A stretch of 63,390 bases of DNA, the filler included, from Phoronis australis (taxonomy: Eukaryota > Animalia > Phoronida), in the NCBI GenBank assembly GCA_002633005.1. It is 5 parts of 5 records of this genome, joined end to end, with 100 filler letters (N's around TTAATTAATTAA, not from the genome) between each part and the next. Parts side by side here need not be neighbours in the genome. Positions count along the whole stretch, not along the records: positions 35,036 to 51,879 come from NMRA01000116.1; 4 more parts are not named here. One strand, 5' to 3'. Each line of letters begins with the position of its first letter. Within the stretch, counting starts at the first letter, position 1. This document shows positions 35,862-61,306 of this stretch, in pieces. Position numbers and translations under genes: made by a program. Below the pieces are notes generated by a model. The model saw nothing but the letters and a program-made list of their open reading frames with translations, had not been told where the DNA came from and did not search any database.

Positions 35862-36019
35862 CTACAGATTTATCGGCCCTTTAAGCTGACATTTGCCACA
35901 AACTCCGCACGACTTTTCACAGTAATACAGCATGTATGCTGGATTCTTCTCGCACTCTGATGGATACCATATCAGCGCCCAATCGGGACACATCTCATCC
36001 TTATCAACGCAGTTGGCGA
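35862..36019 (-). CDS. Terminal exon, ShK toxin-like domain 2 of an astacin-ShK gene
   Basis: TTTCAG acceptor, phase 1; ANCVDKDEMCPDWALIWYPSECEKNPAYMLYYCEKSCGVCGKCQLKGPINL*; six-Cys ShK pattern; AATAAA at 35687-35692(-). Confidence 0.85.
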
Positions 36020-36497
36020 CTGAAATCGAAAACGAGGTAATGTAGTGTGTACTACTGTTTCACGCGGTTTACATGAATGTAATCGGGGAAACGCTAGAGC
36101 CCTTTTTCAGTGGCGAAAATGAATCGTTCCGTATACAGTATCTTGAGAAAATCAAGACTTCACTAGACCTCGAAACATCACACCAGTAAAAGGCGGGTGT
36201 TTAACACTGCTCGGAATTTTACTCCGCAGCGTACCACGTACTAAGTGATTAGACGGCGGTGAGCTTAGAGTGCTCAGTTATGGTTTGTGGTGCGATAATT
36301 GAGGATGTTTCGCTGCAACTTCAAGCTTATGTCTTGCGGTCTACGAAGCTCAATCGAACTTACAAAACATAGTGCTTTGATGACTCGAACTCCCAGCAAA
36401 AATGATACAATTATTTGCATTGCCTGTTTTTTAACAGGTTTGAGATTCACCGTAATGTAAGTGATACCGAGAGCGGTTGCATTGCAAACGTAGATAC

Positions 36498-36615
36498 ATT
36501 TGATACAGGTTTTACACGACTTCTTGCAATAGTTCAACATATAGGCAGGGTTAACATCACATTCGTTCGGGCTGCGATTGGCCCACGACTCGCATTTTGC
36601 GTTATCGTGAATGCC
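36498..36615 (-). CDS. ShK domain 1 exon (first Cys missing, splice phase doubtful)
   Basis: GIHDNAKCESWANRSPNECDVNPAYMLNYCKKSCKTC; boundaries approximate. Confidence 0.7.
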
Positions 36616-36738
36616 CTGAACCGTAAAATAGTGTGAAAATATCGTAATAAAAGATCGTACTACGATTTGTAAAGCACTGAAATGGGGATTGTACATGTAT
36701 TTTATGAAGTTGTCGTATGGTGTTTTGATATTGAATAC

Positions 36739-36972
36739 CTGTTCGTTTATTTGTAGGATTGCCACACTTGTACATAGCGTTTAGTTTGAACACTTCTGTT
36801 TCCGTCATCTTATGCTGGTTTCCAAGAATCTTAAGGTCAACACCATTTTTAGGCGTGATGGTGTTTTCGCCCATTTCTGCTAAAATAAAAAACTCTCGCA
36901 TCATAATGCTGTAGTCATACTTGGCTCCGTAGGGGATCGTAGTCATCCACACTTCAAAGTTGTGCTTCATGT
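36739..36972 (-). CDS. Astacin (M12A) metalloprotease C-terminal exon, degenerate Met-turn
   Basis: MKHNF...YGAKYDYSIMM...TITPK...LGNQHKMTETEVFKLNAMYKC; TTCCAG acceptor, G|GTATT donor; upstream HExxH exon not found. Confidence 0.78.
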
Positions 36973-37819
36973 CTGGAAAATTAAAGGTTAGTGGAATTTT
37001 GATCGTTAATTTATGTGTACGTGGTTAAGCCTAGTCGGGAAGTGAACATTTTGACCATGACTACGTGTTGACTGAACGAAGCGTTGGTTTTGGAAACATG
37101 CCATTACCGAGTTTTCTGAGACCTGGCGAATATACAACGTGCTGTCAATTACAGGCTTCCGTCACTGAAACTAACTTTTGATTTACAACACCGTCATGAT
37201 AATATGTTTTTCAGTAAAATTAGAAGTGACTGACTGCTTTGGAAAGTGAGAACGTGAGAGTTCGTTGCTAAAGACCAAGTTCTACATTTTGTTTTGTCTT
37301 AGCATGAAAATTAAACTGTTGTTCGCCGAGCGTGGTGGCAATCATAAACGAATTGAGGCTCTTTTCGTAGACTAAGAAATCACGCCTCATGTGAGTCACA
37401 AAGAAGATGAGACTAGCTGCTTATCGACTAATGATCGAACTCAATTTTCGACGGAACGCTATCGTTTCCAAATATGCGAAATCACGTAATTTGTGTGTGA
37501 CAGGAGTAAAGTAATTATTTGTGGTGTAAAGTAACTTTTAATGTCGTAAATAATTAATTGAAGCGCACGGTAACTACCGCAAATAATTACTTTACGCGTC
37601 AAAGAATTACCTGACACCTCTAACAAAAATCAACTTACGCACGCATTTGGGCAACGATAGAACGTGGGTTTGTAACAGCTTTAACTATTTTCAGGAAATA
37701 CTACATTGATATTCTTTGTGGTTAGTAAAATAGCAAATATGAATTCAAAACACCAAGGGCTACCAAGTCTCATTGAACGCCAAACTGTTTTCATCACTCT
37801 CTAAATGGGCTAACTCACG

Positions 37820-38445
37820 CCGACAGGAGGCGCGTTCTAAAACGAGGCTCGCTACGATAGTTCTGTGGGCTTGTCGGCATATTTGTATTCCGCGTTGCTC
37901 GAACGGCTCGAAAAAATACGGACACTCAACTCTTTTACAATCCCTAAGGACGTTGAGATTCGGAAGCGTTGGGTCGTTGTCATACACTGTGACGAAGAAA
38001 AATATGTCCGTGTAAAATTTATAAAAGTTTTCCTTAAGTTAGATCGCATTATGTCGCATCTAGGTTAAATATATCGTCAAATCGTCAACAATACGAGCAG
38101 ATGACCTGGTTTGTGTAGAAAGCATTTTTATCAACAATTTACAAGAAGAAACGTAACCCTGCATTCAGCATAATACCTAATCCGTAACACCGATCGCCGC
38201 AATTTGGTCACATTCACTTTTCATGTTTCGAAACTAGTTTTCCGAAAAAAGCTTATACCCTTTCGTCAGACAACTCTTTGGTAAATAGCTTGTTCTGTAA
38301 TGTATTTTTCTACGTCTCTGTGGTTAATTATCCACACATTTTTAAGATTTAATGTCCTGTTTGGACTCCCGGCCATTTAACTCACCCAATGTCAACTTCC
38401 GCTTTGTTTATCGCAGTGAGCCTCGCTTTGGATTTTAATGTCCGC
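37820..38445 (+). repeat. Second copy of the THAP-relic repeat; empty site for the hAT insertion
   Basis: Continuous across the point where 15401-15443 and 21346 onward are split by the hAT. Confidence 0.75.
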
Positions 38446-39452
38446 GTTCGAAGGTCTATGGTGCCCCTGTGAGGCTGTGCACTTTTAACACTATTGACAA
38501 GAGAAGTCTATCTCCACTGACCAAAGTTTTTATTGGGTCTAGACCTACTTTTCCCAAAAATGTGAACGTGCTCGTTGGTGTCTTCTCAAAGCAAATAAAC
38601 ACGGTTATAGTTAAATTCTGGTTTTTGAGCAACGACGGAGGGCTGCCTGTAGTTGACTTAACGTCGGTTTCTACTGAATTTTACAGGACGGAAACGCACA
38701 CACGTGTATACGCATATATGTCAATCTACCAATTCACAATCGAATTGGAGACTGGATGAAAAACATACCTGTATTTGACCAACGATTTCAATTCCAAATT
38801 TGAAAACGCTTGCCCTTTGCCGTACTATGCTAGAAAACAATATCAGATAACAAACCTATTTTCTGCTGTTTTGTTTCTTGGTCGATTTTAAGGAATTCAC
38901 ACGCACTGTGACTTTTTGAAGCTGTTTAGCGCCAAGTTAACCACTTGAGCGCCACCCTCCATGCCCATCCCACTACTACTGGAAATAAAAGATTGATTCA
39001 GTTGATTGTTCTCTGAATGCTGCTATGATTTTGGCTGACGAACAGTATTTGGGCGTTGACGGAATATTTTGTTCGTCCCACACTTAGGCCAATGATCGAC
39101 CAGATGACATGTTGCAAATCTAAGTTGAAGTAGAATTCCCTGGATTATACTGTGGTACTCCTTACCAGATGGAACAGATGTTTGTGAAAACTCAAGGTTT
39201 TGTTCTGCCCGGTCATACTTCATCAAACACTAAAATTAAACTTATGTTTTTAAAAAATGCATATCTACCCAACAGAGGGAGCTGGTTGTTTTATTACGAT
39301 GTAATTTCTTTCTGAAGTGCGCTGTTTAAACTTAATGCACGTGTTGGCTTCAAAAGCCTTGAAAGCTTCAGCCAGTCTACCCCTTTCCTTCGAACCTTCA
39401 AAAGATTAAAACCTTGAAAATACAATTTGATTAAAATCGTCATATATCAATG

Positions 39453-39560
39453 TATGCGCGCGCGCGCGCGCGTGTGTGTGTGTGCGTGTGTGTGTGCGTG
39501 TGTGTGTGTGCGTGTTCGTGTAAACGTATGCGTTTGTGCATGCATGTATGTATGCATGGT
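39453..39560. repeat. (CG)n(TG)n/(TATG)n compound microsatellite
   Basis: Direct reading of an alternating purine-pyrimidine tract. Confidence 0.9.
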
Positions 39561-42500
39561 ATGTATATATTTGTGTACGCTTCGACATATGTATACATTT
39601 GGTATGCAACGGTGCATGCTTTTAGACGCTTTTATAAAAACTTAATATCTGCTATTGTAATGGATACAATTCTAGTGACAGTGACTCTTCTAGAATTTCA
39701 AAACAAAACTTTACCACTACAGAGAAAAAACATTTATGGTAACTGAAGAGAAGGGAAAGCCGAGGCTTGACTTAATGCAGGCATTTGGTCTTAGGCCTCC
39801 ACTTTACATTTGCAGAATAAAGGTTTAGCAAAGTAATTATGAGCAATTAAATCACAGTCTAGAAATAATTTATAGAATTCATCTCAGTAATTAGAGGTTA
39901 TGTGCATATCCTCAGAGACTTTGAATTTTTGGTCAAGTAAGAATCAATTATTTTTCTCAAAGAATTATTTGAGGCCCAAGGATAAACTTCTGTCTCAAGT
40001 CCTAAGTCACTAGGTATACATGTAAATAAAGCAGCTCGGGTACCTAGGAGTCCTGTAGATACATATGGAAGATGTTTCAGTTTTCATCTGGCTCATTCAA
40101 AAATCCCTAATGCCTAATTCGTTTTCTGGTGCCATGTCTGTAACATTGAAAAACAATTATATGGAGTACAGCTGTAGCAAACTTGAAAATGGTTATTCAT
40201 GTTATGTCAAATGTGATGTTAGTTTTGTGATCACCATGGACCAGTGAAATGTAATGTCTGGTTCAAAGAAAACGCTGTTGAGCGGAAGGTTTGACGTCGC
40301 AAACAGCTGGACGGGAGAGAGAAGAAAGAAGTACACGGTTTACCAAGCAGGTTTCCCCTCCGTGCTATTGTAGCACTTTCTCAGGCAGTGCGGTGAGACC
40401 ATGTTTATACAAATGTCTACTTTACCAACACTGCTGTCGATTACGTATGGGACGACTCCTTTTGGCCATCTCCTGTTAGCGTGCAGTATACACCGTGGCG
40501 TTTCTACAATGGAAATTTAGTTTTTTTACTTCAAGAAACCGGATACTGTGCGTGCAATTAAACAGATGAAGAAACAAAAAAAAATCCCGACAAAGCAACA
40601 CACTTGGAACAACATCATTTTGTCAAGTAACAAAATCACTGTCTACTGGTTCATCACCGTACTTCATATCCACAACTGACGTGATTTGCAGGTCCTGAGG
40701 TACTTAATTGCTTCGCCCATTTCTCGCCAAACGTGAAATTGTTGGCGAAGGAAGCGCCGTGAAATAAGTGACAACCCGGCTGTGATCAAAAATAGGTGAC
40801 CAAACACAAAACTGAAACGAGGCTCTACGGGAGAAGATATTCTTTGCAACCAAGGGTTCATGGTCCCGTTTTGCCTTCCGCGGCTGCGCCGGTCGTCAGA
40901 ACTTGCTGACTAGAGATAGAACACTTGCTATACAATGTCACTTTTTCGTATTTCTGTGTTTTTTACTGTCAGATTAAATGGAAAGTTGCAGACGATATAG
41001 TATTCAGCAACTGAAAACCGAGACATAAGTGTCTTATAATTAACAGTTTTGATCCAGATTTTACGTTTAGGGCATGGTTGTACGTCGAGTGCAAGTTACG
41101 CTGTTGCAACTGTATTACTTTAAACTATACGGAAAGTTTGATGATCGGCTGAAGACGTCGAGTCGACGTTGACCTACTTTTTGAACTTTCCATGTCAGAG
41201 GTCGCTGTTGAAGTAGTGCGGGAGGTATTTCCCTCGACAGATTCAACACGCGTGGGATAAAAAACTATATATATTACTTTTATCATTGTAAGAACTACAC
41301 CAAAGTTGTGCATGTGTAATTATACGATTGGACTGCTATAACATCGTTAGAAATTGTGAAATCACAATCATGATGAACATCACGTGAAGAAAAAGCTATC
41401 AAATGACAAAAATACAAACGTGCTGACAAGAATTTCACAGAAAGTTTTTAAAAAAATAACACACAGATTAAACTGGCAGCAAAACGCAATTCGAAAACGT
41501 TAAGTTATATTTTCACCATTAACAGAACATTTTCTTGAATTTTTTCAGTCTTAAAGAGGATTTTACCTTCGCGGTACATTGCCGAGATGTACGGGCGCTC
41601 CTTGCCCTCTGAAAAGCGAAATCAAGCATCAGAGATTGGAATCGGTGCAGCTCAACACCACGATAAACATTGAAAATTCGATAAATTCATCAACAGTCTT
41701 ATTCCACCAGGTGTCCTTGTTGTAATTCTTCAAAGAAATGACGGACATTGTTCAGTCACTAGGTGGTTAGACCATCTCGCTTATGAGTCGGCTCACTAAA
41801 GCTGCCAAACGACATGTCTTGGAAATCGACGACAATTTGCGAGTCCACTCAAGAATAGTTCGACGAAGGGACAACTTACGAGAACGGGAAGCAGAAGGAG
41901 TTATCAAAAGCAGAAATGGCAACTTAATATTGCTTCCGAACCATGAGTCTCATGCCCAATATAATGAGAAAATGTCATGCGTTTTCTTCTGAAATCGCTA
42001 ATACTTCGTTTTTTATATTTGTAGATAATCCCACCAGATTTAAGTAAGGTAATGCGGTAATGTTGGCTTAGAAAGTAAATAGAACAGCGTTGAGTAACAC
42101 TTCTAAAAACAGTGTTCGATTTTGTGAGTTCTTTGCTATGAAATCGAAAGGTCTGACGAGCAAAATATTTTGCCATGAGATCTCGGCTAATCACCAGTTT
42201 CGAGTTGAATTTTTATATCAATTAGTTGCGTACAATAAATACATGTCTGGCCGATTTAACCGGTGCGGTGTTATTGACTTCATCTAACGTTGTCTCACGT
42301 CTTTGTTCTTCGTCGTCGTTGTTTTCTATAGCAGACGACAGTTTATCAATACCTTTCTCTAGTAAGATAATTGAGTTATTAATCAGGCTAAGTTGCATTT
42401 CTACACTTTATTCGTCACATGATGTGCTGAGAAGCTCTTTTGTTGCTTTGATTTTTTCTGTTGTCAGGGTAGCTTTCAATGTTTTCAGAGCCATTCTTGG

Positions 42501-43003
42501 TTCATTTCCGGGTTTCGGCACCAATTTATGTAGCCAGCCAGCTACATTTAGCTGTATGAAGACTGTCGTCAAAATACAGTTAAGTACCAATGTGTGTTTT
42601 TCTTCCATAGACCCCGAAATTCCACATAGCCAAAAGTGGTCTAAACAACGTAGAGCTTTCAAAAGGGCGGAACTTTCAGATCCGGGTAACACACAACATG
42701 GGTGAACTCGTTTACTTCAAACAATGAGCTATACCAGGTATAGCTCATTGCTTCAAACGACTTCAAAGAACTACTGACGAAATTTTGCTGCAGTCATTCC
42801 CCATTAAATCGACATACCGGTAATTGAAATCAGATGTGGACCGCTTCATTTTTTTCATTTTTGGCTATAGACCTCAATCTTTCCAAATAATCATTATCTT
42901 GGCCTAATTTCTGTCATACCTACACTGACTAGAACTCTCAATTGTCAGGAAAATTTACTTAAAAACAGTTTGTTGAAAAGAATAAGTTCCACAGCGTTCT
43001 TTA

Positions 43004-43328
43004 TTAATCAAGAAATAAGGTAATTTTGGCTACTCGATAGCTTAAATGAAGAACTGTACATACCCGACAAACAGTTCGACCAAAAAAGCTCCTCAGATTC
43101 AGCTCAACAACTACCTCTTCAAAGATTGTGCACGTCATTTCATCTATCTGGTCCGACAAATCAGCCACCTTGAAGAGCAAATCGCCCATTGTGTCAACCC
43201 ACGCGTCCGTCACTATGTCTTTACCAAGTCTTCTCAGAAGTCGTACCACTCTTGCTTTGAAGGCACTTCTTCGCAAAGATCGAACAATCCATTTCAACAC
43301 CGCCTTTGTTGCTTTTCTTACCCATCCC
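43004..43328 (-). CDS. Unknown secreted prepropeptide, copy A, terminal exon (107-aa cationic amphipathic mature region)
   Basis: TTTCAG acceptor, phase 2; GWVRKATKAVLKWIVRSLRRSAFKARVVRLLRRLGKDIVTDAW...VCRV...*; AATAAA at 43000-43005(-); paralogue at 50852-51131. Confidence 0.75.
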
Positions 43329-43387
43329 CTGAAATATGAAATAGCGAAGACTCTCATATTATGAATATTGAGGAAATCAATCCACTG

Positions 43388-45095
43388 CCCAAAAGTGGGG
43401 GGTATAGCCTCCCCCTTTGGTGCACCTAACATAGACCATGGGTGGCGCAGCACTGAAAAAATTTGGAGGGCTATAGCCACAGCCCCCTATGGTGTGACGC
43501 CCATCCACTGGCTATGCTAGGGCTAGACTTTTAAAGGTATTAGCCAAAATGGGTAAAGCATCTGAAAACTTTTAGCTATTAAAAAAAAATTATTAGCAAA
43601 ATACTGTCTCTTTTCCGAACCTTCACAAATGATAAAAATACAGTTACACGGAATATTTTTTTTTTTATTTTTCATGCACAGGTCCTTCTCATCAATGTAC
43701 TGTCAGAAAAGATTTTTGCTTTATGGAAAAGAAATGTTCAACATTCCAAAGTAATATAGGAAATAGTAAGTTAGAGAGGATGTCAGCCAACATGAAAGTT
43801 GGGCAGGGAACCCCCTTATCCCTGGGCTACGGCGGGGGTACATTTAGCATAACTTGTGACTCAAAACAAAGCTGGACTGTGCAGAGTAGTGAATAAAAAA
43901 CTCATTAAGAAACAAAATGACTTTTACTTTATATTGATTACTTTTGGCTGCCGTCGATATGCGAACGCATCCCAGTCTCTCAATAACTTTAGCGAGGCCC
44001 TCAATCCCTTGATTTTGTGGCCGAATATCGACTCCATTCTCCTTCAAAAATCATTGAAAAGTTATGCGAAATTTCCCTCATGGAGCCCACAAACTTCTCT
44101 CAAGTGATTGAAAAAATCCCTTAGAGGTACGAATCATTTGTAACTGACACAGGTCACAGTTTGAAAGAGCGCAAAATGTTACTTTTGGCTACTTGAGGCA
44201 AAGTTTGTGGGGGCTTGAATCATGGGGGATAGGGGTTGTAGTTGATGGGTTACAATTTCCCGTCACCTCAAAACATTCCCCTCTCAGAAGGCACTGGCAC
44301 CTTTCCTCTCGGTTTATCGGAGGCCCTGTCTAGGTATGACATTTGAAGTATTATGATTTAAAAATAGATAACAAACTCGTTCTTCCCTGCGTCGTCTGCG
44401 CCTTTTACTCCTTGAAAAGAAAACCTGTAACTGTCAAGTCTCGAATAGTATTTGACACGACAAATCGTTTGCTGAAAATTGGTAAAGTTGGTAATGAATT
44501 AGGAGAGATCCATGTAATATAAAAATAATATAGTTAAACCTTGAGTTCATATTGCATGTTTGAGGCAGCTCAACTCAGTTCAGTTTTATTTCCCGGGTAA
44601 TTTAATACATTCGTACCGGCTCACACCACGTTGCGAGTGTAAAAAAAGAGACTGGATCACGTTTGCCGCCGAAATAGTCTTCTATTCGTCGTTTTGACAT
44701 TGTTGCTTTCAGAAGACAAGCGGCATCTCGTACACAAGATCTTGCTGTGACGTGAGAAATTGTGAGAAAGCGCTGACCTCCCCCTACACAGTTGAACATT
44801 TCGTTGCGGTAAAGGTGGGATTTCAGGGAGGGGGGATTGCGGCAGACTTGAAATGGAACATTCGTTTGCTATTTTCAAGCTAGGACTCCTAATCGAAGTA
44901 AGAAAGTTGTTGGTGGCGCGTCTTGATTCGTGTTGCCTGTGAGTCAACAAGAAAGGCGTTTCCCGAAATGAATGTTTATTGTCAAGTTGCAAAAGCATTC
45001 GCCAACTTGGCGAATGGACTTAACTCTACCATCACCAGTACCTCTCAGAAATCGCCAAAAGCGAGCTGGCGAGCAGCTAGCTAGAATCTAGACCG
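43388..45095. mobile_element. Composite insertion of about 1.7 kb in the intron of copy A
   Basis: Absent from the paralogous intron (ATCCACTGGCAGCAGCAT is contiguous at about 51184); contains a short MITE (about 43438-43504, similar to 4450-4506) and a block similar to 21790-21960. Confidence 0.6.
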
Positions 45096-45649
45096 GCAGC
45101 AGCATATCGTCGTACTGTGAACTTTCAGTTCAGCTTGCTTGATAGGATATTAGTTGACATTTTTGGATTTCAAAACAAGCGTCGACTCTGGCCGAACACC
45201 TGTCTGCTTTATACCAAATAAAAAACCTTCAACGCACGGATTTGCTTGATTTTCTGTTTGAGAGCCAAGAATGATAGCTTAGTTCTCAGTTTTATCTTAA
45301 TATCTTTCGACAGCTTTTTCGGAAATTTAATAAACAATTGCAATCGTTTTAATTCCTCACCTAGAAAAATCGCACAAACGATTTTCCGTACGGCTATTTC
45401 CTAAAAATTGTCACCAAGCATATGCTTGAATGTACGAAGTGTTAATTTTGTAGTTCAGTGATGTCCAAAACTCATAAAACAAGTTTGTTTAAAGTTTTTA
45501 AAGAACTTTTTCACTAAAACATGCAATGTCCTAAACCCTATCTTAATACACAAAGTAGCAAAATTGTAAGTAGGCGGTCTGTTCACAAATTTGTTTAGTG
45601 TGCCAAACCTCTGTTAGGCAGAAAAAACTTTTTCATGACGTCACCCTAC

Positions 45650-45718
45650 CTTTTCTCACGATGCGATTCTTCTGACAAGGCAGTGACCACAACCAGCAAG
45701 CCCAACAAAGCCAAAACC
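45650..45718 (-). CDS. Unknown secreted prepropeptide, copy A, signal/propeptide exon (xVLALLGLLVVVTALSEESHREKR)
   Basis: TTGCAG acceptor and AG|GTAGGG donor, phase 2/2, splicing in frame to 43328 to give HREKR-GW; hydrophobic signal core; ATG exon not located. Confidence 0.72.
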
Positions 45719-46518
45719 CTGCAAACATAATGTTGAAACTGTTAAAGTACGAACCGCTGTTGGTACTACGCAATTTATTTAGTTTTAGTCCATATAACGA
45801 GAATTTTTACTCGAAATCTTGGCCTACAGACAATTCACAAGGGTTTTGAAGTTCTGAAAAGCTGGACATGAGAATTCCGCTTCATGGGCGCATATTGGCT
45901 TTTGCTGGAAAGACAGAAGACAGAGTCGAGTACAGAATTTTCCTAGATTTGTTTAGTTTAGACCATTTCGGACAATTCAAGCTTGGGGTCTCATGGACGA
46001 TTTGATAGCCATTGAAGACAAAGCGTCCAATGCGATAAGTAAGAATTATTAAGTCGTCTTTTCAAACTTAACTATAGGTCATGCGATGCGGAAAACATGC
46101 ATATGGTGTGTAGAAAGATTAATAATGTTGGCGTATGCCATATTATTAGTATTTACAACAGTAGGACGCTAGCGTGACACTGTTTGGTATGCTAAAGTGC
46201 ACTTGCTGATCAAATTTGTAGTCGAAGATGAACAGATACACAGCACTGATGATAAAGTCGCATCAAGGAACTTTTCGTTGCGTCTATATCAGTGCCTGCA
46301 GCTAAAGTTCATTTAAGGTGTACGTATTTTACTAATTTCAGAATACGCATCAGTTATGAACGTCATATTCCTTGCTCAACGAAATGAAAGTATTTTACTT
46401 GTTGACATTTGCTTGTGCATCACGTCGACAGCATTAATAACATAACTAATAAGAGTAAATATCAGTCTTTCAACCTTCATTTCAAAAGTTACATACCGGG
46501 TATTCAATTTTCGATCAT

Positions 46519-47465
46519 CGTCAATTTGGTTTTTTGCGAGGGAACAGCACCGTGGCACAACTTGTTGAAATAGTACATGAGATTCATTTACATTTTGAGA
46601 AGGGAGAGAGTGTCAGGTCCATTTTTCTAGATATAGCTTCTGCTTTCGACTGTGTCCCTCACGACCTTCTACTTCACAAACTTCGATCCTATGGCATTAC
46701 TGGTAATCTTTTAAACATGATCACCTCATATCTCTCCGAAAGAACATACAGTGTTCGTGTCGATGGCGTACTTTCAATTTTATCCCATCCTGGATTTGTA
46801 AACGCAGGTGTACCGCAGGGTAGCGTATTGGGCCCTCTTCTCTTCTTGGTTTATATTAATGACCTTCCTGATAACCTGTCATGTAGCACATACCTTTATG
46901 CAGATGACACGGCGCTTTTTTACCCNNNNNNNNNNNNNNNNNNNNNNNNNNNNNNNNNNNNNNNNNNNNNNNNNNNNNNNNNNNNNNNNNNNNNNNNNNN
47001 NNNNNNNNNNNNNNNNNNNNNNNNNNNNNNNNNNNNCTCACTCTTTCGTGCACTCAATGATAACCAATCAGTTGTTAACGCTCTCAATTCTTGTAATAAT
47101 ATCCCTACTAGAGTTACATTATTACTGAATGGTAGTCCTAACCTTGACTTTGTTCTTAACGAATTCCTCCTAAGCAACGTTAGCAAATTTTTATATACCG
47201 TTTATCAATATTGTTGCATCTGATTTCCCTACATGAATCTGTAAATATTTTTGTTTTTATATATCTGTAATAGCATGTCTAAGTATTGGAATACTTATTT
47301 TAGATACTACTTAATTGTATATATCTCTATGTATATAAGTTTCATTTATGAATTGTTTACAACCCAGATATAATGCTTCGCGGTTTCTGGGTTTGTTATT
47401 ATTTCTTTGTATGTTCTGTGTATCCTTCAATAAATATATATCACAGTAAAAAAAAAAAAAAAAAA
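46519..47465 (+). mobile_element. 5'-truncated LINE (CR1/L2-like) with a gap
   Basis: [43 protein letters not shown] and YADD RT motifs; 3' UTR with AATAAA and poly(A) at about 47448-47465. Confidence 0.9.
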
Positions 47466-48849
47466 TGAAGTATGCCCCAGAAGGAACAACATGCACCAAC
47501 TTAAGGAGGACTTCAGGTAACTTGTTGAGACGAAACTATATTTTTACTCAAGAATTTATGATGACCTATCGGCGATCGCGAGGCAGCGATGCATCAGTAG
47601 GCGAGTTTTCGCACTGGGATTTGCTGAAAATGCTCGTAATTTAATTAAACTTTGATAGCAGTGTACTGGCATTTTATAGAAACTCTGTCATAGCTTACAG
47701 ATGAGTCACCGTCAGAGCGTAAATTTGATGAGTTCTAGACCGGGTTTCAACAACTTTGGGCTATAATAAGCGCCCCCCTTCCTGAAGCGAATTTTTCTAA
47801 GCTCCCTGGGCGCTTATTAGGGCAAATACTGCAGCTAACGTTCATCGTTGTAAAATTGGTTCACTTTAACAAATTGGTAGTATAACACCACCATTTCGTG
47901 TGATTGCGCTATTTGCTGTGAGTCAAAGCGTCACTCAATTGGTAGCTAAACAACATTACATCGTCGTGATCATCCAGACGTGTCAATAAACTAATTCAAA
48001 CAAAGTATTTACTTTATTCAGACGTTTTTTTCGAAAGTTGGCGAAACGTGTTACTTTGAAACTATTGATTAAACGGACGATAACCAGGCCTTAGTTTGAG
48101 TTGGTAACATGTTTGGTGACCCCATTACCCCATTGGAATACTTTTTTGATAATCGCTGTGACAAACAGGGATACTGAATTGCAATATATTACGAAAGAAG
48201 AAAAGCAAAATGAGATTGTTAAAACTAAAAACCGTATATAGGTGGGACGTCTTTATCCTGAAACACAAATTGAGTTAATATAATCAGCGGGGTCTGATTG
48301 CATTTCAACACTTTCCAATCCATTCATAGGTGTCTTCAACCGTAAAAAATCTGCTACAAAAGTTGTACAATTTCTTGTAATTTTACCATGTTCATTGTGC
48401 CATTATTAATCAAACAATAGGTTGTCTTGGCCATTCTAAAAGGCTCATTTAAAGGAAGGTTGGTCACTAAAACAGACGAGTACACGCGTTTGAGAACATC
48501 TTTTCCACACAGCTGTACTCCTAGATAGCATAAACAAATTTTCTAGGTTTTTCAATTCAAAATAAGTCGTTTAAAGAGAATGTAAAGCTGCCGGTTTTAA
48601 TGGTGCCAGTAAAGACAATTAATTACAGCTTTGACCTAATTATTTCCCTCCTATTATTAATTTTCTATTTGTCATGAACCACTAATTAACTACTTCAAAT
48701 ATCAAAACCTAATGTTTTGGTTAATTACTATACTTATCAAACGAGAACAATTAGTGTTTTGATACCGTTTTGATGAAAACGTGACCACGCAAATACGTTC
48801 AACCTTTAATGCTATTGGCATGCCACACAGCGAGGGAGCGAAATGGAAC

Positions 48850-48906
48850 GGGAGGGAGAGAGAGGGTTTGGGAGGCAGGGAGGGAGGGAGGGAGGGAAGG
48901 AGGGCG
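48850..48906. repeat. (GGGA)n/(GA)n purine tract
   Basis: Direct reading. Confidence 0.75.
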
Positions 48907-50851
48907 GTAGGGTATGTTACATGTCTAATATAACAAAAGGAGGGTGACAGTAGAGTGTTTGGCGTTAGAAGTAATTTATTACAGTATAATTTCTGATAAT
49001 TATTTGTAGGCGTTTCTTGTAGGCCTGAACAAAAGCGTTGTTGGATCGAGGTCTATTTATAAATAATGCTAGATATGGAATATGCGTGTTTTATGAGTAA
49101 AGAAATGGTGCTTTACTAAGAACAAGTGTAACCCAAAAACCTTTTGGAAATTTATCAAACATAACATNGTTTGCCCTTGAAGACCCTTATATTCGTGCTA
49201 CAAACTCGAGTAAAAACTCGAAATTTCGAGTTCAAACTTGAACTTATTGCTTTAATATTGGGTTTACAAACTGTGAACTAAGGGCAATAAATTATCTACG
49301 TAAGTTATTGTGTACTCGAGCATAGAATAATAGACACTTATCTTGAGTTAGCCCAAAAGTAGAGTAGAAAATGCCAAACCTAATTTCGAGTTCCATTTCG
49401 AGTAAAAAGATTGGAGACCGGGCCCAGGATTGTCAAGCCGATGAAACGGCTACAGAGGGACATCATTTTAGGGGAAAGTATTCATGAAGATGCCGATTGG
49501 CAACTGAGTTGGTTTAGGAAATGTTATTGCTCCCAGGACCTGTTATTTAGTTTATATGCATTGTGCCAAACACATTATTTTTACTTCGCCTTTTTAGAGC
49601 TTACCCAAAAAAGCGCTCGTTCAAAGGAAGACATTTGCATGAACTGGATTTTAGAAAGGTTTTAATGAATGTTAAGAAAAATTTGCTCATTAAGCTGGAC
49701 TTCAAACTCAATCGTGCTTTTTACTCTATAATTTGAACTTTTAGTCTGAATTGTAACTTTTGCGTTTGAAAATGATTTTTTGGTTCAAAAATGTCACTGT
49801 TCATGCAGTGTTGTTTTTGTGTGTTGATAGAGTGACACTACATGTTGTAAACGTTAATGAAACATTGCTCCAGTGTCTTGCATACATTTATGCCATTCAA
49901 AGAAAAACTTGCTTCCAAATGAACGTCATTATTTCCATCAGCGGTTTTTCAGAAAAAACCCATTCACATTTGTCTTTCCTTCAGATTTTTTGAAAATTAA
50001 ACAGGTGTTGGTTTAAATGAAAATTTTTTATTAAAATAACTTAAAAACAAAAAGATCAGCTGATATTGTTTGCAAGATGAATAATCCAATAAACAGAGAT
50101 TATTTCACTAGAATTTATTACGCTCATCTAAGAACGACTTTTGGATTGTGAAGAAGTACATTTTTTCTAAAGCGAATAAGATTAAAAATTGTTATGCGTT
50201 TTCTTATCATTTAATGAAATTTGAACACTTTGGTATACTTTTTAACGCGACTAAGTCTGCAAGTTATAGTTAAAAGCTATAACTCGATTTGAATAAACCT
50301 TTCCTTCGGGTTGCTCTGATTAACACTCACACGCCGTTCCTTATTGGAGTGTCGTTGAGGAATCTCCTCCGAACACAAAAAATTTCCAACAACCCTTTCG
50401 CATATCCAAATGGCGGCGATCATAGCTCGTGTCTGAGACTATATTTGACTTCAGTGCCACCTATACATTAGAAGTATACCCGGGAGCGCGTGTGGGGAAT
50501 TTTCGATAGCGTGCGTTGGAATCAACATTTTCAAATCACTACTACTTCGTTAAGATATGTCATAGAACAAAAATGAGCACATTTTATGGAAAACTGGCCT
50601 GGTCTTCCTGATGGCGTAAATTATTTTCGAAAAATAGGAAAATATCGTCGATTTGCCCCTTGACTCTTACTGGTAATGCCTTAGTGCAAAAACGCACAAT
50701 ATGCCGAAATCATCCTCGATGGAGTTTCTATAGTGAATAAAAAAATTCAACAAAGCAATGGCATTTTGCCGGAGTGTATCCATTGGAAAAAACAAGTTCC
50801 GCAGCATTCTTTATTGTTCAAGGAATAAGGTAACATTGGCTCAGTGAGAGC

Positions 50852-51131
50852 TTACACCAAAATCAGCACGACTTGACAAACAGCGTGTCCAAAAGAGCTC
50901 GGCAGACCCATTTGAACAGCTGCGTTTTGAAATAGGGCACATGTCACTCTGTCTACGTAGTCCAACTTATTGGCCACATTGTACAGCAAGTCGCCCATTT
51001 TGTCAACCGTATTTGCTGCCCCACTGCCACCGTACTGTCTCAAAAGCCTGACCACTCTTGATCTGTAGGCAGGATTTCCCAAAGATCGAGCAACCCATTT
51101 CAACGCCGTCTTGGTTATTCCTGCCCATCCC
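50852..51131 (-). CDS. Unknown secreted prepropeptide, copy B, terminal exon (92-aa mature region)
   Basis: Same phase-2 TTTCAG acceptor as copy A; GWAGITKTALKWVARSLGNPAYRSRVVRLLRQYGG...TCALFQNAAVQMGLPSSFGHAVCQVVLILV*; AATAAA at 50810-50815(-); the signal exon would fall in the gap at 51880. Confidence 0.75.
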
Positions 51132-53279
51132 CTGAAATATCGTGAAATAGCGAGAACTCAATCACATGATGTTGAGGAAATCCATCCACTGGCAGCAGCA
51201 TTATTGGTGCGGTTAACAACTCGCGAAGATTGTCGTTGTGAGGATGTTCAATTTAGCTAGCTTTTTACAATAGTAGAAGACATTTTTGCATTTCAAAACA
51301 AGTGTCGACTCCTCTGAAAGCTTTCTAGCTACTCTGTAATAAATAAAATAATCCTTCAATGCACGGATTTGCTATTAAACTTGAGAGCCAGGAAAGATAA
51401 CATAGTTCTCAGTTGTCATCTTAAGATGTTTCGACAGCTTTCTCGGAAAGTTAGTAGACAACTAAATTCGTTTTTATTCCTAGAAAAAGGCCTACATGAT
51501 TTTCCGTAGGACTGTTTCCTGAAAATAGTCAATAAGCACAAATTACTATGAACAGGGCTGTAATCTAAGGAATGTAATCTGCTTCATTACTAGAAAAACG
51601 TTCATATGATTTTCCGTAAGTCTATTTCCTAAAAATTAAAGCACAAACTACTACATATAGGGCTTTCATGGACGAAATGTTCGTATTTCATTGATGTTCA
51701 CAACTCATGAAACAAGTTAAAGGGTGTCAACAATGTTATTTCACGAAAACATGCAATCGCCTGAGCAACATCCTAATATACGTAGCAACAAAATTGTGAG
51801 GATGCGACTTGTTCACAAATTTACATAGTGTAGCATGACTCTGTTAATAGGAAAATTTAAAACTTTTTTATATCAAATGNNNNNNNNNNNNNNNNNNNNN
51901 NNNNNNNNNNNNNNNNNNNNNNNTTAATTAATTAANNNNNNNNNNNNNNNNNNNNNNNNNNNNNNNNNNNNNNNNNNNNCTGCCAACATCAATGGTTGAC
52001 AGGCAGCATTTTCACAAAAAGAATTCTTTGTATCACTCGTATATCTCACCTGTCTCTATCAGTGGGGAGTGCAAGTCCCGGTTTTTCTGCAGCGCAAAAA
52101 GCTCCTCTGGTCCTCTTTTTAGGGACTGCAGCCGGCATATCTTGTTTTGAAGTTACTTGACACAGCACTACCCTGAGAGGTATTAAGTATGGGAAATCTA
52201 TATGAACTACATGATCAGATAAAATATCTTGTCTCTGTGACCACTGACCACGAGTATCAGCCATATTTCTTTTTTCCCACACACACCCGCTAGACGTCTC
52301 TACGGTCCATGGAACAACAATGGCCGCCAATGGCCGTTCAATAGGATTTCGCTAGGTGAAACGTCTCCCTCTCTACGGTCTCTGATCGTACCCAGAGTCA
52401 TGGTGTGTGTTGATTATAACTCCGTGTTCCTGTATATATATATATGGTTCATTTGGTTTTATTTACTGTATGTTGAAATGAGTAACTTTTTGTGGGGACG
52501 TAGGCTACTATCGGGCCGCCTGCGGCGTCCAGGGCGATGTAATAATTGCCTAACACGATATGTGAGCGTCCGGAGAAACTATTATGCACCACCCCGCACG
52601 TCAATTACGGATACTAAAACTTTTGCGTGCATCTAGCCCTCAGTTTCTTTGACAAAAATAGTATAGTTAATACAGGAACGTAACCCTTTGTTTCTTTGCA
52701 TTAACTGTGTCACGAATGTTGTTGTTTTTAGTTGACATAAGCGTCAGGCTTGCGCGGATGTGATGAGAGCGGCCTCAGTCAGTGAGCCTGCGCAAAAGTT
52801 AACAGATTGGGGACTTCTTCATTGTTCTTGAGGTATTTGGGATGTTACTCGTTTGTTTTTGTCAATGATTGTAATGTAGTGAAGTATTGAAGCCGCAGAT
52901 AAAATTTCTGATGTAAATCACCACCAGATTGTCCTTATTTAGGTTGTTCAGGAGACTGAAGCAAGTCACATGTTCACGGACTTGGCGTCCATCGCACTAG
53001 ACTCCGGCGTAGTGTGGGGAGGACAACGTTTTTTCTGTTTATAAGTAAAATTAACTTACTCAAAGACCGGGGATATAGAAGTTCGAACGTTTCGAACTGT
53101 GCTATACTGTTACAGTTCTTTGTCAAGGACTGGGAGGGGGCGGCCCATATTATCCTAGGCAATGACCGTCGCCTCTGTTGGTCCAACAGTAGAATAAAAT
53201 TTGGCACCGGTAACACAATTATATTGTCTCATTTTATTTTCACTGCAGTAATTGCCTAATATAATTACTTTGTTCTCAG

Positions 53280-53770
53280 TGCCAGAGATGGAGACAGAAA
53301 AGATATCCGACACCAACCCACGTCCTTGTAATGGTGAGAGCAACACACCAGGGAAAGACAAGCTGAGGGTGTTTCCAAAAAACCAACAAAGACCCTCGAC
53401 TCTGCACTGCCCTCCTATTCTATCCGGTACGTGTGTACTATGTGTGAAATGTCTTTCACAAACACGAGTGCCTGTGTGAAGCACATGAAGGCTCATACTG
53501 GAAAGATGCCATACAAGTGTGCCATCTGTGCCAGGCTCTGAATATGCATCACAGAAGGAACTGTCCAAACACAAACGCCAGAAACAATGCACTGACAGGT
53601 CTTTCCAATGCACTGTGTGTCATAAAAATTTCGCACGAGATGGCAACTTGCGTAGGCACGTGGAAATGCATACCAGTGACAGTTCATACAAGTGTTCCAT
53701 TTGTGAAGAGTCGTTTATTCAACACAGTGAACTTTCTTTTCATATGAAAAAACATAGCAAGAAAAAGGTA
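53280..53770 (+). pseudogene. C2H2 zinc-finger exon (4 fingers) with two frameshifts
   Basis: HMKAHTGKMPYKCAIC, FQCTVCHKNFARDGNLRRHVEMH and YKCSICEESFIQHSELSFHMKKH; the fingers fall in different frames; TCTCAG acceptor ending at 53279. Confidence 0.75.
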
Positions 53771-53772
53771 TA

Positions 53773-55797
53773 CCGTAATCGTTCGGGTTAACGCCCATGC
53801 TCAGTTAACCGCCCACCCCCTACTTTAGGTGGATTTTCGATTGAACCGCCCACTGCTCGGTTAAGCGCCCCCCTGTGATTTTTGAAGATTTCCAGTTAAG
53901 GCCCACCTCTCGGTTAAGCGCCCATCCCCGACTTTTAAAGAATGAAGATTTAGCGCCCAGTGCTAAGGATACGTGCGATTTCCCGACTTTTAGAAAAAGA
54001 TGGATGATCACTAAGAGCGCAACGACGCTGGGCTTCCGAAACGGTGGTTTAGCAATGTGAATTACAATTCAAGTAACGAGTTATTGTCTCGGGTCATGGA
54101 CTCACTTTAAAATGTAATACTTGAACGTTTTTGTCACTTTATTTTCTTCCCATGTTTGCAAAGTTTAAGAACGCCACCGGCGTCAAAACCTCCGCTTTCA
54201 GCGACTTTGTCTGCCGCGCCGAGTTTCCATCTGTAGTGCACTAGATAAAACATATATTCGAAAAAATCAGGCCAGAGAAATGTGACCATGGTTTTGCCAA
54301 CCCTCCAAATTCTATTAANNNNNNNNNNNNNNNNNNNNNNNNNNNNNNNNNNNNNNNNNNNNNNNNNNNNNNNNNNNNNNNNNNNNNNNNNNNNNNNNNN
54401 NNNNNNNNNNNNNNNNNNNNNNNNNNNNNNNNNNNNNNNNNNNNNNNNNNNNNNNNNNNNNNNNNNNNNNNNNNNNNNNNNNNNNNNNNNNNNNNNNNNN
54501 NNNNNNNNNNNNNNNNNNNNNNNNNNNNNNNNNNNNNNNNNNNNNNNNNNNNNNNNNNNNNNNNNNNNNNNNNNNNNNNNNNNNNNNNNNNNNNNNNNNN
54601 NNNNNNNNNNNNNNNNNNNNNNNNNNNNNNNNNNNNNNNNNNNNNNNNNNNNNNNNNNNNNNNNNNNNNNNNNNNNNNNNNNNNNNNNNNNNNNNNNNNN
54701 NNNNNNNNNNNNNNNNNNNNNNNNNNNNNNNNNNNNNNNNNNNNNNNNNNNNNNNNNNNNNNNNNNNNNNNNNNNNNNNNNNNNNNNNNNNNNNNNNNNN
54801 NNNNNNNNNNNNNNNNNNNNNNNNNNNNNNNNNNNNNNNNNNNNNNNNNNNNNNNNNNNNNNNNNNNNNNNNNNNNNNNNNNNNNNNNNNNNNNNNNNNN
54901 NNNNNNNNNNNNNNNNNNNNNNNNNNNNNNNNNNNNNNNNNNNNNNNNNNNNNNNNNNNNNNNNNNNNNNNNNNNNNNNNNNNNNNNNNNNNNNNNNNNN
55001 NNNNNNNNNNNNNNNNNNNNNNNNNNNNNNNNNNNNNNNNNNNNNNNNNNNNNNNNNNNNNNNNNNNNNNNNNNNNNNNNNNNNNNNNNNNNNNNNNNNN
55101 NNNNNNNNNNNNNNNNNNNNNNNNNNNNNNNNNNNNNNNNNNNNNNNNNNNNNNNNNNNNNNNNNNNNNNNNNNNNNNNNNNNNNNNNNNNNNNNNNNNN
55201 NNNNNNNNNNNNNNNNNNNNNNNNNNNNTAATTTTAAAACTGCTCTCTGACTATGAATTTGGCAGCTAGTACGAGACTGTAACCATAAATTTGATGTCTG
55301 CTAAGACCTCTGCAACAAGTGAAGCTTGCACGCGCGCACTTTAGCAAGGTCACGTGTTGAAATATTTGCAATCCAAGTAGAGGCTGCGTCGTCTGCGCTT
55401 CGCAGGGCAAAGTAACAAGACCGCAGGACGGCACGGGGCTATTACTCAGCAATTCTGTAAATTTAATAGAGTGACTAACTAATCTGAGGGCAAGAGAACC
55501 TTTGTTGGGATCATCCGCTGTTATGACATTTTCCCCGTCATGTGGCGACGTGACGATAACGCTCTTTGAAAAGTGCTACGCGTTCCGAGTGCGTGTGTGG
55601 TGTGGGGACAGATCACCAGGTAAGATTAACCGCCCAGGGCGGTTGCCTGTCGTAATAAGCGCCCATGTTCGGTTAATCGCCCCCCCTGGATTTCTTGAAA
55701 TTTCACGTTTAAGCGCCCATGTCTGGTTAACCGCCCACCCCCGATTTTTTGGGTTTGCCAATTTAACCGCCCAGGGCGTTAACCCGAACGATTACGG
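53773..55797. mobile_element. Tc1/mariner-pogo-type non-autonomous element with subterminal repeats (interior partly gap)
   Basis: Perfect 24-bp TIR CCGTAATCGTTCGGGTTAACGCCC, TA TSD (53771-53772, 55798-55799), multiple TTAA(C/G)CGCCC subterminal motifs at both ends. Confidence 0.85.
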
Positions 55798-58611: not shown

Positions 58612-59942
58612 CTGGTCTAATATTAGACCTAACTTGCATTTCACCAACGTGGTTTAAAAGTCTGAAAGCCTGGTTTTGTTAGACCAGGGAGAGGGTCTAG
58701 AAAAACCAGGTTTAACACCCTACGGTGTCGATCTGGATTAACCCAACAAAGAAACTATTNNNNNNNNNNNNNNNNNNNNNNNNNNNNNNNNNNNNNNNNN
58801 NNNTTAATTAATTAANNNNNNNNNNNNNNNNNNNNNNNNNNNNNNNNNNNNNNNNNNNNGTGATTTTCCACAATCCATTACACAGACGATTTCAGATGCT
58901 ATTCATAAAAAGGTCAACAGATGGCATCTAGATGTGTGATTTCATTCAGTTGTGGGCACCTTTCAAAACACGGTAGCAAAGCTGATGAAAGCACAGTGCA
59001 GTTCTGCGGTCATTATTTCTTTCCGTCATTTTGGTCATTGCCAAGGCCTGTAGAGTAAAGGCTTCTTTCCACTCACTTAAACTCATTACTAGTGGCCCAT
59101 AGATATCAATAGTAACGTAAACTTGTGGTATGTCCATTGGCTGCAGTACTAAACCAACTGGTTATACTGAAGCCAGCATCAGTGGAGTGAGTGCCAGTTG
59201 GCACTACGATTTTATGTATGTGTGATTTTTAAACTATGAAGGGTAGAGTACATATTCAGAAAATGACTGAAATGAAATTCTTATACAAGTAAAATGGCAA
59301 ATATTTGAACAAAATAGTAGCAAAACTTTTACACAACTCATGCCGTTGTTGACAGCGACATCTAGCGTTGTTGACAGCGATATCTACTAAAGATAACATT
59401 CCCACTGTAACGATGCCCTAACACTGCAACACTGCTTACTTGGAAGAAAACTTGGGTCTTAAACTACAATCCAAGACCCAATTCAAGAGCTCCCACTGAC
59501 TGATGTCTCCTAAACACCGAAATGTCACCGTTAATGGGAAAGGTCCTTAAAAACAGAAGGTCGTAATATGAATAATTTTTAAAAGCTTGGGAGAACACTT
59601 CCATATTGCAACTAAATACCTAAAGTCATTTAATACATGAGCTGCAGAGTCAATAGACAAAAGCTTTGACAATCGCCTTCCTTATAATTACAGCCATTAA
59701 TAGCAGGCCATCTTCCATTGAACATACAGAATAGAGAATCCTTGAGGCGAAACCAGATGGAACTTTACCTCCATGTTTTACAACAATAACCTAAGAGCAA
59801 ATCTGTGTACTGTGAACTTGATCATAATCACATGGCCTATCACTAATTGTGTTGGACTGTCTCTCATTGTTAACATCTGAATGTTATTCTATGATTCAAT
59901 AGTTTACTTTGTGCCAAGTGTAACTGAGCCGATGTCACTTGA

Positions 59943-61272
59943 AGGCGAAAGCAACCTTTTTTCATGTCATTTTTAGCAAAAATAAGGTTCGTTGATTATC
60001 CCAAACATATTTTTCACTTATTTACTGCTTTTCGTAATTTAATTAATTACTCGTTGTCTACTCCGGAAGTGACGTTTTGGGAGGCATCAATTTCGCGCCA
60101 GTTTCTTTTCATATAGTCTGACTGTGAGAGCAGTCGAGTTGGTCATTGTTCTACCTCGGTTGTGATAAGTTCGGTCGTCGTTTGCTTTTGCTTACGAGTC
60201 AGTCAACATGCCACGCTGTTGCTGCGTACTGGGGTGTACTCATTATCGTCTCACGTACAGAGGAAGAACTGTCCCACTTGCCCGAGTGTCCCGTGACACA
60301 TTCCCACTGGAGGGTGATCTGAGCACCCAAACTGCTTACATCCCGCCGTGTGACCCCCTCGCCACACACCTGGCACCTTCCAAATAGCTCCAATACAAGT
60401 CCACCATAAACTTATCAAACTTAGGCTCACCGATCTGTTCATTGGATGACGAACTGTCCTCTTCACTGGGTGTCGAACTGGGCCTGTATTCACTCTCACT
60501 ACTCAACATCACTGCAGGGCTGCTTACAGGCTCTGGGGCTAGAGACAACAGCACAGGGTGAATCACTGCTAGTTCCTGGAATTGCACGCAATGGGGTACG
60601 TTTGGAGGCACGGGTGACAGTAGATGAAGTGCCTCCAGTCTGTATATAGTGGCCACAGCTCGCGAGGCTTCTCGCTTAAAAAACACACTTCTCGGGGTTG
60701 GCGACGGGGCACTGCCGGGAATCAACAGTGACGGTATGGTACCCTTCTTCAGGCGTTGTTTCGCAGGGACCTTCATCAATTCAGCGTACATATCTGTCAT
60801 AATCTGACGGCAGAAAATGCTTGCCACACACTTGGTAACCCTCCATTGCTTTGTACGTTGCCAGGACGGATAGCGCTGCGTTCTTCACATGAACGAGCTA
60901 GCCAAGTACGGCGAAGTGTGTCATCCTTCGGAAAGCGACGCAAGGTACTCAAAGCGTATGTGAGACGATAATGAGTACATCCCGGCACGCAGCAACAGCG
61001 TGGCATGTTTACTGACTAGTAAACAAAAGCAAACGACGACCGAACTTATCACAAACGAGGTAGAACAATGATTGACTCAACAGCTCTCACGGTCAGACTA
61101 TAATGAAAAGAAATTGACGCGAAACTCTTGCCTCCCAAAACGTCACTTCCGGAGTAGAGGACGAGAAATTAATCAAATTACGAAAAGCTGTAATTAAGTG
61201 AAAAATGTGTCTGGGATAATCAACGAACCTTATTTTTGCTAAAAGTGACATGAAAAAAGGTTGCCTTTGCCT
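59943..61272 (-). mobile_element. Non-autonomous Kolobok-type element (two left ends) with a THAP remnant
   Basis: Termini AGGCGAAAGCAACC...GGTTGCCTTTGCCT, degenerate TTAA flanks (TTGA/TTAC), THAP ORF 60797-61006(-) MPRCCCVPGC...FPKDDTLRRTW. Confidence 0.88.
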
Positions 61273-61306
61273 TTACAAACATTCAAGTTTACACATCTCT
61301 TTTCAG

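What the first reader, a model, noticed from the sequence alone, without database searches (positions are those of the whole stretch)
43004..51131. Tandem pair of unrecognised prepropeptide genes: candidate new antimicrobial or membrane-active protein family
Seen: a 69-nt exon (45650-45718), absent from the ORF track, encodes VLALLGLLVVVTALS-EESHREK and splices in phase 2 to 43328, creating REKR immediately before GWVRKATK. A diverged paralogue 7.8 kb away has the same acceptor, the same GW start, two conserved Cys and an AATAAA at the same place. Established: signal peptide + acidic pro-piece + RxKR furin site followed by GW is a typical layout for animal antimicrobial and venom peptide precursors. 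Inference: the 92-107 aa helical, Cys-poor product matches no animal AMP family I recognise (not defensin, big defensin, macin or saposin Cys spacing), so it may be undescribed.
Basis: partly seen in the sequence, partly recalled or inferred. Interest (0 to 1): 0.85.

Follow-up and report, generated by a model that had tools for sequence, protein, structure and literature searches.

The report
Highly expressed orphan five-helix secreted protein
This animal genome carries two related genes, one spliced and very highly expressed and one with no RNA in the runs examined, whose product is predicted to be a small secreted, positively charged five-helix protein that matched no named family or solved fold in our searches and likely attacks microbial membranes, which is untested.

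Summary
RNA reverses the emphasis. The 45650/43328 junction was not seen, and part of copy A's last exon had zero depth in 4 of 4 runs. Copy B (50852-51131) is spliced, polyadenylated and abundant (172-341 reads per million). Its own signal/REKR exon falls in the assembly gap at 51880-51979, and reads add a short ATG exon. Copy A differs from B by one base near its end and reads past B's stop, so the conserved mature length is 92 aa. One distant unnamed relative was found (128 aa, same layout, no Cys). AlphaFold gives B and that relative the same five-helix layout; no family, sequence or fold match was found (best Z about 5). The 'acidic pro-piece' is 8 residues with net charge 0; the acidic part is a middle helix. 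Best reading: a new family of secreted, convertase-activated, membrane-active host-defence proteins (about 45% as an intact fold, 60% in any form). Function is untested.

The parts
45650..45718 (-). Copy A exon 2: hydrophobic core and end of a predicted signal peptide, then an 8-residue pro-piece ending in REKR (last R made by the phase-2 join)
   Evidence: no read shown to come from this copy
43329..45649 (-). Copy A intron (GT..AG), 71-74% identical in two stretches to copy B's intron
43004..43328 (-). Copy A last exon, coding part: 107 aa from GW; one base longer than B near 43057-43060 and reads past the position of B's stop
   Evidence: depth 0 over 42813-43125 in 4 of 4 runs
43000..43005 (-). 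Copy A AATAAA, overlapping the stop codon
50852..51131 (-). Copy B last exon, coding part: 92-aa mature protein from GW, Cys64 and Cys85; the expressed copy
50797..50851 (-). Copy B 3' UTR with AATAAA at 50815-50810 and poly(A) site near 50797-50800
   Evidence: poly(T) loose ends at 50797 in runs X2 and X4, molecule ends at 50799-50800
51132..51879 (-). Copy B intron as far as the assembly gap
   Evidence: homology to copy A's intron runs to within about 10-15 nt of where A's donor lies
51880..51979 (-). Assembly gap inferred to hold copy B's signal/REKR exon
   Evidence: position from intron homology; the exon's sequence is seen in reads joined to 51131
46459..47223 (+). LINE reverse-transcriptase fragment upstream of copy A exon 2
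   Evidence: Pfam RVT_1 E 1.3e-20

Best explanation
Copy B is a spliced, polyadenylated, very highly expressed three-exon gene whose roughly 120-aa product is predicted to be secreted and cut after REKR, releasing a 92-aa cationic five-helix protein that likely kills microbes by acting on their membranes; copy A is likely a silent or decaying duplicate. Proposed mechanism (inferred throughout): the signal peptide and 8-residue pro-piece are removed in the secretory pathway. Helices 1-2 (net +7 to +12 over residues 1-35) bind anionic microbial surfaces. The acidic helix 3 (net -1 to -6) holds them partly neutralised in the folded, stored form. The uncharged, hydrophobic C-terminal helical hairpin (helices 4-5, probably stapled by Cys64-Cys85 in this lineage) then inserts into the bilayer. 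Shown: gene structure, splicing, expression, charge pattern, variation. Predicted: secretion, cleavage, fold. Inferred: target and mechanism.
For: Splice joint to 51131 in 1428, 2401 and 1792 reads, stranded. Loose ends translate to the pro-piece ending in REKR and to an upstream ATG exon. 2198 of 12.75 M, 3851 of 11.31 M and 3411 of 11.05 M records laid on B's last exon, roughly RPKM 500-1000. pI 9.8-10.0, net +6 to +7, and the same cationic/acidic/neutral thirds in A, B and the distant relative P0003. P0003 keeps signal + short pro-piece + KR + 93 aa (E 4.4e-5; alignment score 121 against a shuffle maximum of 49). Two AlphaFold models share a five-helix layout with a C-terminal hairpin (pLDDT 80/pTM 0.73; 83.5/0.79). 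Of 18 invariant positions, 11 lie in the acidic and hydrophobic part, which argues that this part is functional. Rapid change: dN/dS 0.68 between A and B, 0.98 over the cationic 32 codons; 18 of 24 listed coding-region variants in run X3 change an amino acid, no indels were listed and the stop is kept as a stop. Clustering, duplication and allelic polymorphism are described for AMP genes (PMC10608444, section 3 read).
Against: No activity data and no relative of known function. Tissue and condition of the runs are unknown, so no link to immune cells or induction. Amphipathic moment of the expressed copy is unremarkable (best 0.56; 225 of 2000 shuffles reach it), against 52-53 of 2000 for A and P0003. 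dN/dS below or near 1 is not positive selection, rests on 87 codons of two sequences, and A may be unconstrained. 18 of 24 is close to the neutral share, the rows were picked by the tool (40 of 78 shown, 24 of them in the coding region), and X3/X4 could be another population or a pool. The models rest on a 3-sequence alignment. The C-terminal hairpin is only moderately hydrophobic (best 19-residue KD 1.63 in B, 0.88 in A's first 90 aa). SignalP/ProP were not available.
Confidence: 0.45

Rival explanations
1. The active species is only the cationic N-terminal 30-35 residues, released from an anionic C-terminal pro-region as in tunicate linear antimicrobial peptide precursors.
For: Charge order cationic then anionic in 3 of 3 sequences matches the Ciona layout, where cleavage falls before an acidic residue without a basic motif (PMC7387483, passages). 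A Gly-rich linker follows helix 2 in B and P0003.
Against: Most invariant residues (11 of 18) lie after residue 35; both models fold as one compact unit; a further uncharged hairpin with a Cys pair follows the acidic helix; the precursor already has an N-terminal convertase site.
Confidence: 0.15
2. A secreted protein with a job other than defence: lipid carriage, a mucus or adhesive component, or a fast-evolving gamete-recognition protein.
For: High, similar expression in 3 of 3 raw-read runs of one study fits a constitutive secretory product; basic helical fast-evolving proteins are also known from sperm (recalled, no call); weak amphipathicity of B.
Against: No Pfam or fold match to such proteins (a missing match does not exclude them); no repeats or low-complexity sequence typical of structural mucus proteins; short pro-piece plus dibasic site is typical of bioactive secreted peptides (own knowledge).
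Confidence: 0.3
3. A cytolytic defence or prey-capture toxin aimed at animal cells rather than microbes.
For: Same precursor layout and membrane-active features; very high expression would suit a skin or gland secretion; a ShK-domain astacin gene is the neighbour, though such genes are common outside venoms.
Against: Strong net positive charge favours anionic microbial membranes (own knowledge); no match to any toxin family or structure above background.
Confidence: 0.1

Closest known systems
Tunicate linear cationic alpha-helical AMP precursors (Ci-MAM, Ci-PAP, styelins, clavanins; PMC7387483, passages seen)
   Same: Signal peptide, then a cationic amphipathic helical region, then an anionic helical region; several Ci-MAM peptides begin with W or GW-like residues.
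   Different: Here a short REKR pro-piece precedes the cationic part, a conserved uncharged helical hairpin follows the acidic part, Cys can be present, and the whole is predicted to be one folded domain; no sequence similarity was detected.
Saposin-like pore-forming proteins (NK-lysin, amoebapore, caenopores; PMC11542183, passages seen)
   Same: About 80-90 aa, four to five helices, cationic, secreted, membrane-active: the best functional analogue.
   Different: Two Cys (none in P0003) instead of three disulfides; no Pfam saposin hit and no saposin among the top 50 fold matches of either model.
Sea-urchin centrocins (PMC4805251, passages seen)
   Same: Precursor of about 120 aa, 20-aa signal, pro-piece, cationic N-terminal chain starting at Gly or Trp, a middle segment, and one disulfide.
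   Different: Centrocins have a 30-aa pro-piece, a disulfide between heavy and light chain, an excised 24-aa interchain and a terminal Gly-Arg. Here the pro-piece is 8 aa, both Cys lie in the last third, and the C-terminus is hydrophobic with no Gly-Arg.
Colicin pore-forming domain (colicins S4 and N)
   Same: Helical bundle with a C-terminal hydrophobic hairpin; both models align weakly to part of it (Z 4.0-4.5, rmsd 3.9-4.2, 73-78 residues).
   Different: Those scores are tied with unrelated proteins and are below the tool's background; the colicin domain is about twice as large. An analogy only.

Membership tests
Saposin-like proteins | Mostly three disulfide bonds (six Cys) | tested here: not met
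   2 Cys in B, 2 shared plus 1 in A's shifted tail, 0 in P0003; definition from PMC11542183
Saposin-like proteins | Four to five alpha-helices in the saposin fold | tested here: inconclusive
   Five main helices predicted; no saposin among listed fold matches, which does not exclude it
Centrocins | [quoted passage not shown] | tested here: not met
   No Cys in the cationic residues 1-35; both Cys at 64 and 85; definition from PMC4805251
Centrocins | 30-aa pro-piece and C-terminal Gly-Arg | tested here: not met
   8-aa pro-piece; C-terminus ends in hydrophobic residues
Big defensins | C-terminal C-X6-C-X3-C-X13(14)-C-X4-CC | tested here: not met
   Pattern from PMC10608444; absent from P0001, P0002, P0003
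Tunicate linear cationic helical AMPs | [quoted passage not shown] | tested here: met
   Charges by third in 3 of 3 sequences; signal judged from hydrophobicity only
Tunicate linear cationic helical AMPs | Anionic region is a terminal pro-region that is cut off; peptide is Cys-free | tested here: inconclusive
   A conserved hairpin with two Cys follows the acidic helix in A and B; cleavage itself could not be tested
Tunicate linear cationic helical AMPs | Family-specific conserved signal peptide | tested here: not met
   By eye against the two consensus signals printed in PMC7387483: no match to exon 2 or P0003
Anti-lipopolysaccharide factors | Disulfide-closed beta-hairpin with about 20 residues between two Cys (recalled, no call) | tested here: inconclusive
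   Spacing is C-x20-C in A and B, but the region is predicted as a helical hairpin, is uncharged, and Pfam and PDB sequence searches gave no hit
Antimicrobial proteins (functional class) | Kills or inhibits microbes | not testable with these tools
   No assay possible
Furin/prohormone-convertase substrates | R-X-K/R-R motif after a signal peptide | tested here: met
   REKR across the splice joint in 1418, 2454 and 1804 loose-end reads; P0003 has a KR site at the same place; cleavage not shown

The most novel reading that the evidence does not exclude
A previously undescribed family of disulfide-independent, five-helix, pore-forming host-defence proteins of invertebrates with a fold absent from the PDB, kept as a highly variable multi-copy locus, and possibly related to three unnamed Bacillota protein clusters (the same three came first for both B and P0003 in the Atlas), which would make it a bacteriocin-like gene shared between bacteria and animals.
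Probability: 0.25. Interest if true: 0.8.

Novelty: new variant of a known kind. Interest (0 to 1): 0.5.

Why it matters
New antimicrobial scaffolds from invertebrates are usually short linear helices or Cys-rich folds. A 92-aa helical protein that tolerates loss of its only disulfide, has no fold match, is among the abundant transcripts of its host and varies strongly between samples would be a new, easily expressed scaffold and a direct handle on this animal's innate immunity. The case also shows a highly expressed gene that annotation can miss because two of its three exons are absent from the assembled sequence. If it has no antimicrobial activity it remains an abundant orphan secreted protein of modest interest.

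Tried and rejected
Family scans: Pfam, NCBIfam, PHROGs: nothing below E 0.02 for the three proteins. Word-based protein search: no candidate for B (10); with the 3-sequence alignment 1 of 1467 candidates scored, P0003 itself; longer or shorter forms were not searched. Full HMMER scan of 1.84 billion representatives: 1 hit at E <= 0.001. PDB sequences: none below E 0.2. Fold searches: Foldseek PDB 0 matches at E <= 0.001 for both models, viral library 0, VIA-align best Z 4.9 and 5.1 of 48,161 chains; this shows neither a new fold nor absence of a relative. Bacterial origin: the Atlas listed the same three unnamed Bacillota clusters for B (0.88-0.90) and P0003 (0.79-0.83), with a recognition score below the tool's threshold. 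Follow-up found nothing: pattern scan of genome contigs 0 of 142 stretches confirmed; plasmids and phages only E >= 2; three sets of 401 Bacillota genomes gave 9, 6 and 6 weak hits. I inspected 7 of the 9 and 10 of the 12 (those without stops inside, bar one in a 2212-aa frame); they were parts of larger proteins or unrelated small proteins, recognised from memory as ribosomal S20 and PhoU in several cases. No RNA holder was listed by the index; the four runs came by species label. Exon 1 was not found in the assembled window, and the regions upstream of A and B share no similarity. No whole genome is held, so copy number is unknown. A search to place the organism from the astacin exon found nothing; the taxon was not determined. 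Rfam: 0 matches. A dimer prediction was not obtained. Not found in print in these searches: peptide words 0 papers; topic searches 0, 6, 0, 0 and 1 papers, none describing such a family by listing or abstract; subscription papers and supplements were not searched. Earlier scan findings: none by sequence or place; eight unrelated ones by words.
Full report
Setting. The window is from an animal, judged from spliced neighbours (astacin with ShK domains, collagen with C1q) and a LINE fragment. A marine invertebrate is my inference; the taxon was not determined (one search found nothing) and no whole genome is held.

Observation in the DNA. The 69-nt exon at 45650-45718 on the minus strand has a TTTGCAG acceptor and GTAGGG donor, encodes a hydrophobic stretch (mean KD 3.04 over 12 residues) and a short pro-piece, and leaves two bases that complete an Arg codon with the first base at 43328, giving REKR before GW. 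The paralogue begins at 51131 with a near-identical acceptor, is 46% identical over the mature region and about 71% identical in DNA, with 71-74% identity in intron stretches. That is too diverged for alleles in my judgement. Two Cys and the AATAAA are shared. The pro-piece has three acidic and three basic residues, net 0, so it cannot neutralise a cationic peptide.

RNA. Four runs with the same species label were offered: three raw-read sets from one study, of which about 18-19 in 100 letters were read, and one contig set. Laid on 42500-51870 at 88% likeness, copy B's last exon had a depth of 605-1093 in its main bin, all on the strand expected, while the bin 42813-43125 in copy A's last exon had depth 0 in 4 of 4 runs and the next bin at most 1.5 in the raw-read runs, with its listed differences in the intron. 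Reads do lie on 45650-45718, but nearly all differ from it at fixed places (1592 of 1592, 2761 of 2765, 2018 of 2024 at 45683) and join to 51131 in 1428, 2401 and 1792 reads. They come from B's own exon, which the assembly lacks: B's intron matches A's up to the gap at 51880-51979, just where the donor should lie. Loose ends beyond the exon give a further upstream exon with an ATG and 14 coding bases, in the phase needed. This exon is not in the assembled window for either copy. The precursor is thus about 120 aa: 20 of predicted signal, 8 of pro-piece, 92 mature. Poly(A) is seen at about 50797, some 13 nt after the AATAAA. On B's last exon 2198 of 12.75 M, 3851 of 11.31 M and 3411 of 11.05 M records were laid, 172-341 per million.

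Copy A. It has intact splice sites and an open frame, but no RNA in these runs, no identifiable first exon in the 5 kb upstream (one gap remains, inside a LINE fragment), and a one-base length difference near 43057-43060 that carries it past the position of B's stop. That B's stop position is the conserved one is supported by a read variant that swaps one stop codon for another and by P0003 ending at the same column. Without DNA reads I cannot tell a real change from an assembly error, and A may be expressed in a tissue or stage not sampled.

Variation. In runs X1 and X2, 2144 of 2198 and 3727 of 3851 reads are at least 99% identical to B. In X3 only 57 of 3411 are; five listed sites differ in essentially all reads and others in 29-76%, so several sequence classes are present, and an X4 contig differs at 30 of 194 letters. 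Of the 24 listed variants in the coding region and stop, 18 change an amino acid and none was at a Cys codon; 38 rows were not shown. This fits a variable multi-allele or multi-copy locus, but a different population or pooled animals would look the same, and I had no single-copy control. Between A and B, dN/dS is 0.68 over 87 codons and 0.98 over the cationic 32: fast change, not proof of positive selection.

Relatives and structure. One relative was found among 1.84 billion representatives, P0003 (E 4.4e-5), a 128-aa singleton from a Logan contig with no name. It has a signal-like start, a short pro-piece ending in KR and a 93-aa part 34-35% identical to B with no Cys. All three mature regions have pI 9.8-10.0 and the same thirds: +7 to +12, then -1 to -6, then 0 (A's full tail +1). 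AlphaFold on the 3-sequence alignment gives B a mean pLDDT of 80 and P0003 83.5, each with five main helices and a terminal helical hairpin. Cys64 and Cys85 sit on opposite arms of that hairpin, so a disulfide is plausible; I could not measure it. No fold match stood out: best Z 4.9 and 5.1, below the tool's usual best of 7-8 for unmatched models, and no Foldseek match at E <= 0.001. The Atlas put the same three unnamed Bacillota clusters first for both proteins, a lead that searches of three sets of 401 genomes, plasmids and phages did not confirm.

Mechanism. I favour an intact, convertase-activated, membrane-active defence protein (0.45). Cationic helices 1-2 would dock on anionic microbial surfaces, the acidic helix would shield them in storage, and the hydrophobic hairpin would insert. 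Conservation concentrated after residue 35 and a compact model favour the intact form over release of a linear N-terminal peptide (0.15). A non-defence secreted role (0.3) cannot be excluded, since the tissue is unknown and B's amphipathic moment is not above shuffles; a cytolytic toxin is less likely (0.1).

Comparison with known families. It fails the Cys tests for saposin-like proteins (PMC11542183, passages), big defensins (PMC10608444, outline and sections 2 and 3 read) and centrocins (PMC4805251, passages). It shares the charge order of tunicate linear AMP precursors (PMC7387483, passages and part of Table 1) but adds a front pro-piece and a conserved terminal hairpin. The C-x20-C spacing recalls anti-LPS factors (from memory), but the context is helical and uncharged. 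PMC13518417 was searched for taxon words and gave no passage. Other papers were seen as listings only. No paper with its peptide words was found; supplements and subscription papers were not searched, so an annotation as a hypothetical or venom-survey protein may exist.

Verdict. A real, abundant, previously unnamed gene family with a sound precursor model and possibly an unseen fold, whose antimicrobial function is a reasonable but untested inference. New variant of a known kind; interest 0.5.

Noticed in passing
window 35865-40516 (-): Multi-exon astacin metalloprotease with at least two ShK domains, directly downstream of copy A (Pfam Astacin E 2.7e-6, ShK E 4.2e-6 and 1.1e-3).
   Followed up: partly
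window 61220-63388 (+): Collagen-repeat plus C1q-domain gene running off the window end, a possible innate-immunity neighbour.
   Followed up: partly
window 53489-53791 (+): Short C2H2 zinc-finger open frame upstream of copy B, on the opposite strand; if B's first exon lies further up, it would sit in B's first intron.
   Followed up: no
window 49169-49428: A repeat with RNA depth of 200-400 on both strands and inverted joints in all runs, probably a high-copy miniature inverted-repeat element.
   Followed up: no
window 50797-51131: Read depth on copy B's last exon falls about threefold from its 5' end to the middle in X1 and X2; library bias or a shorter transcript, not resolved.
   Followed up: no
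window 60800-61015 (-), and similar frames near 20450-20758 and 31823-32965: THAP-domain fragment and repeated, decayed transposon-like frames that resemble one another.
   Followed up: no
window 12812-12911, 34936-35035, 51880-51979, 58760-58859: Four 100-nt gaps built as 44 N, a 12-nt spacer, 44 N: gaps of unknown true size, one of which hides a highly expressed exon.
   Followed up: partly
ESM Atlas, queries P0002 and P0003: The same three unnamed Bacillota clusters (100, 73 and 92 aa; 80, 205 and 84 members) ranked first for both queries; not confirmed by genome searches.
   Followed up: partly
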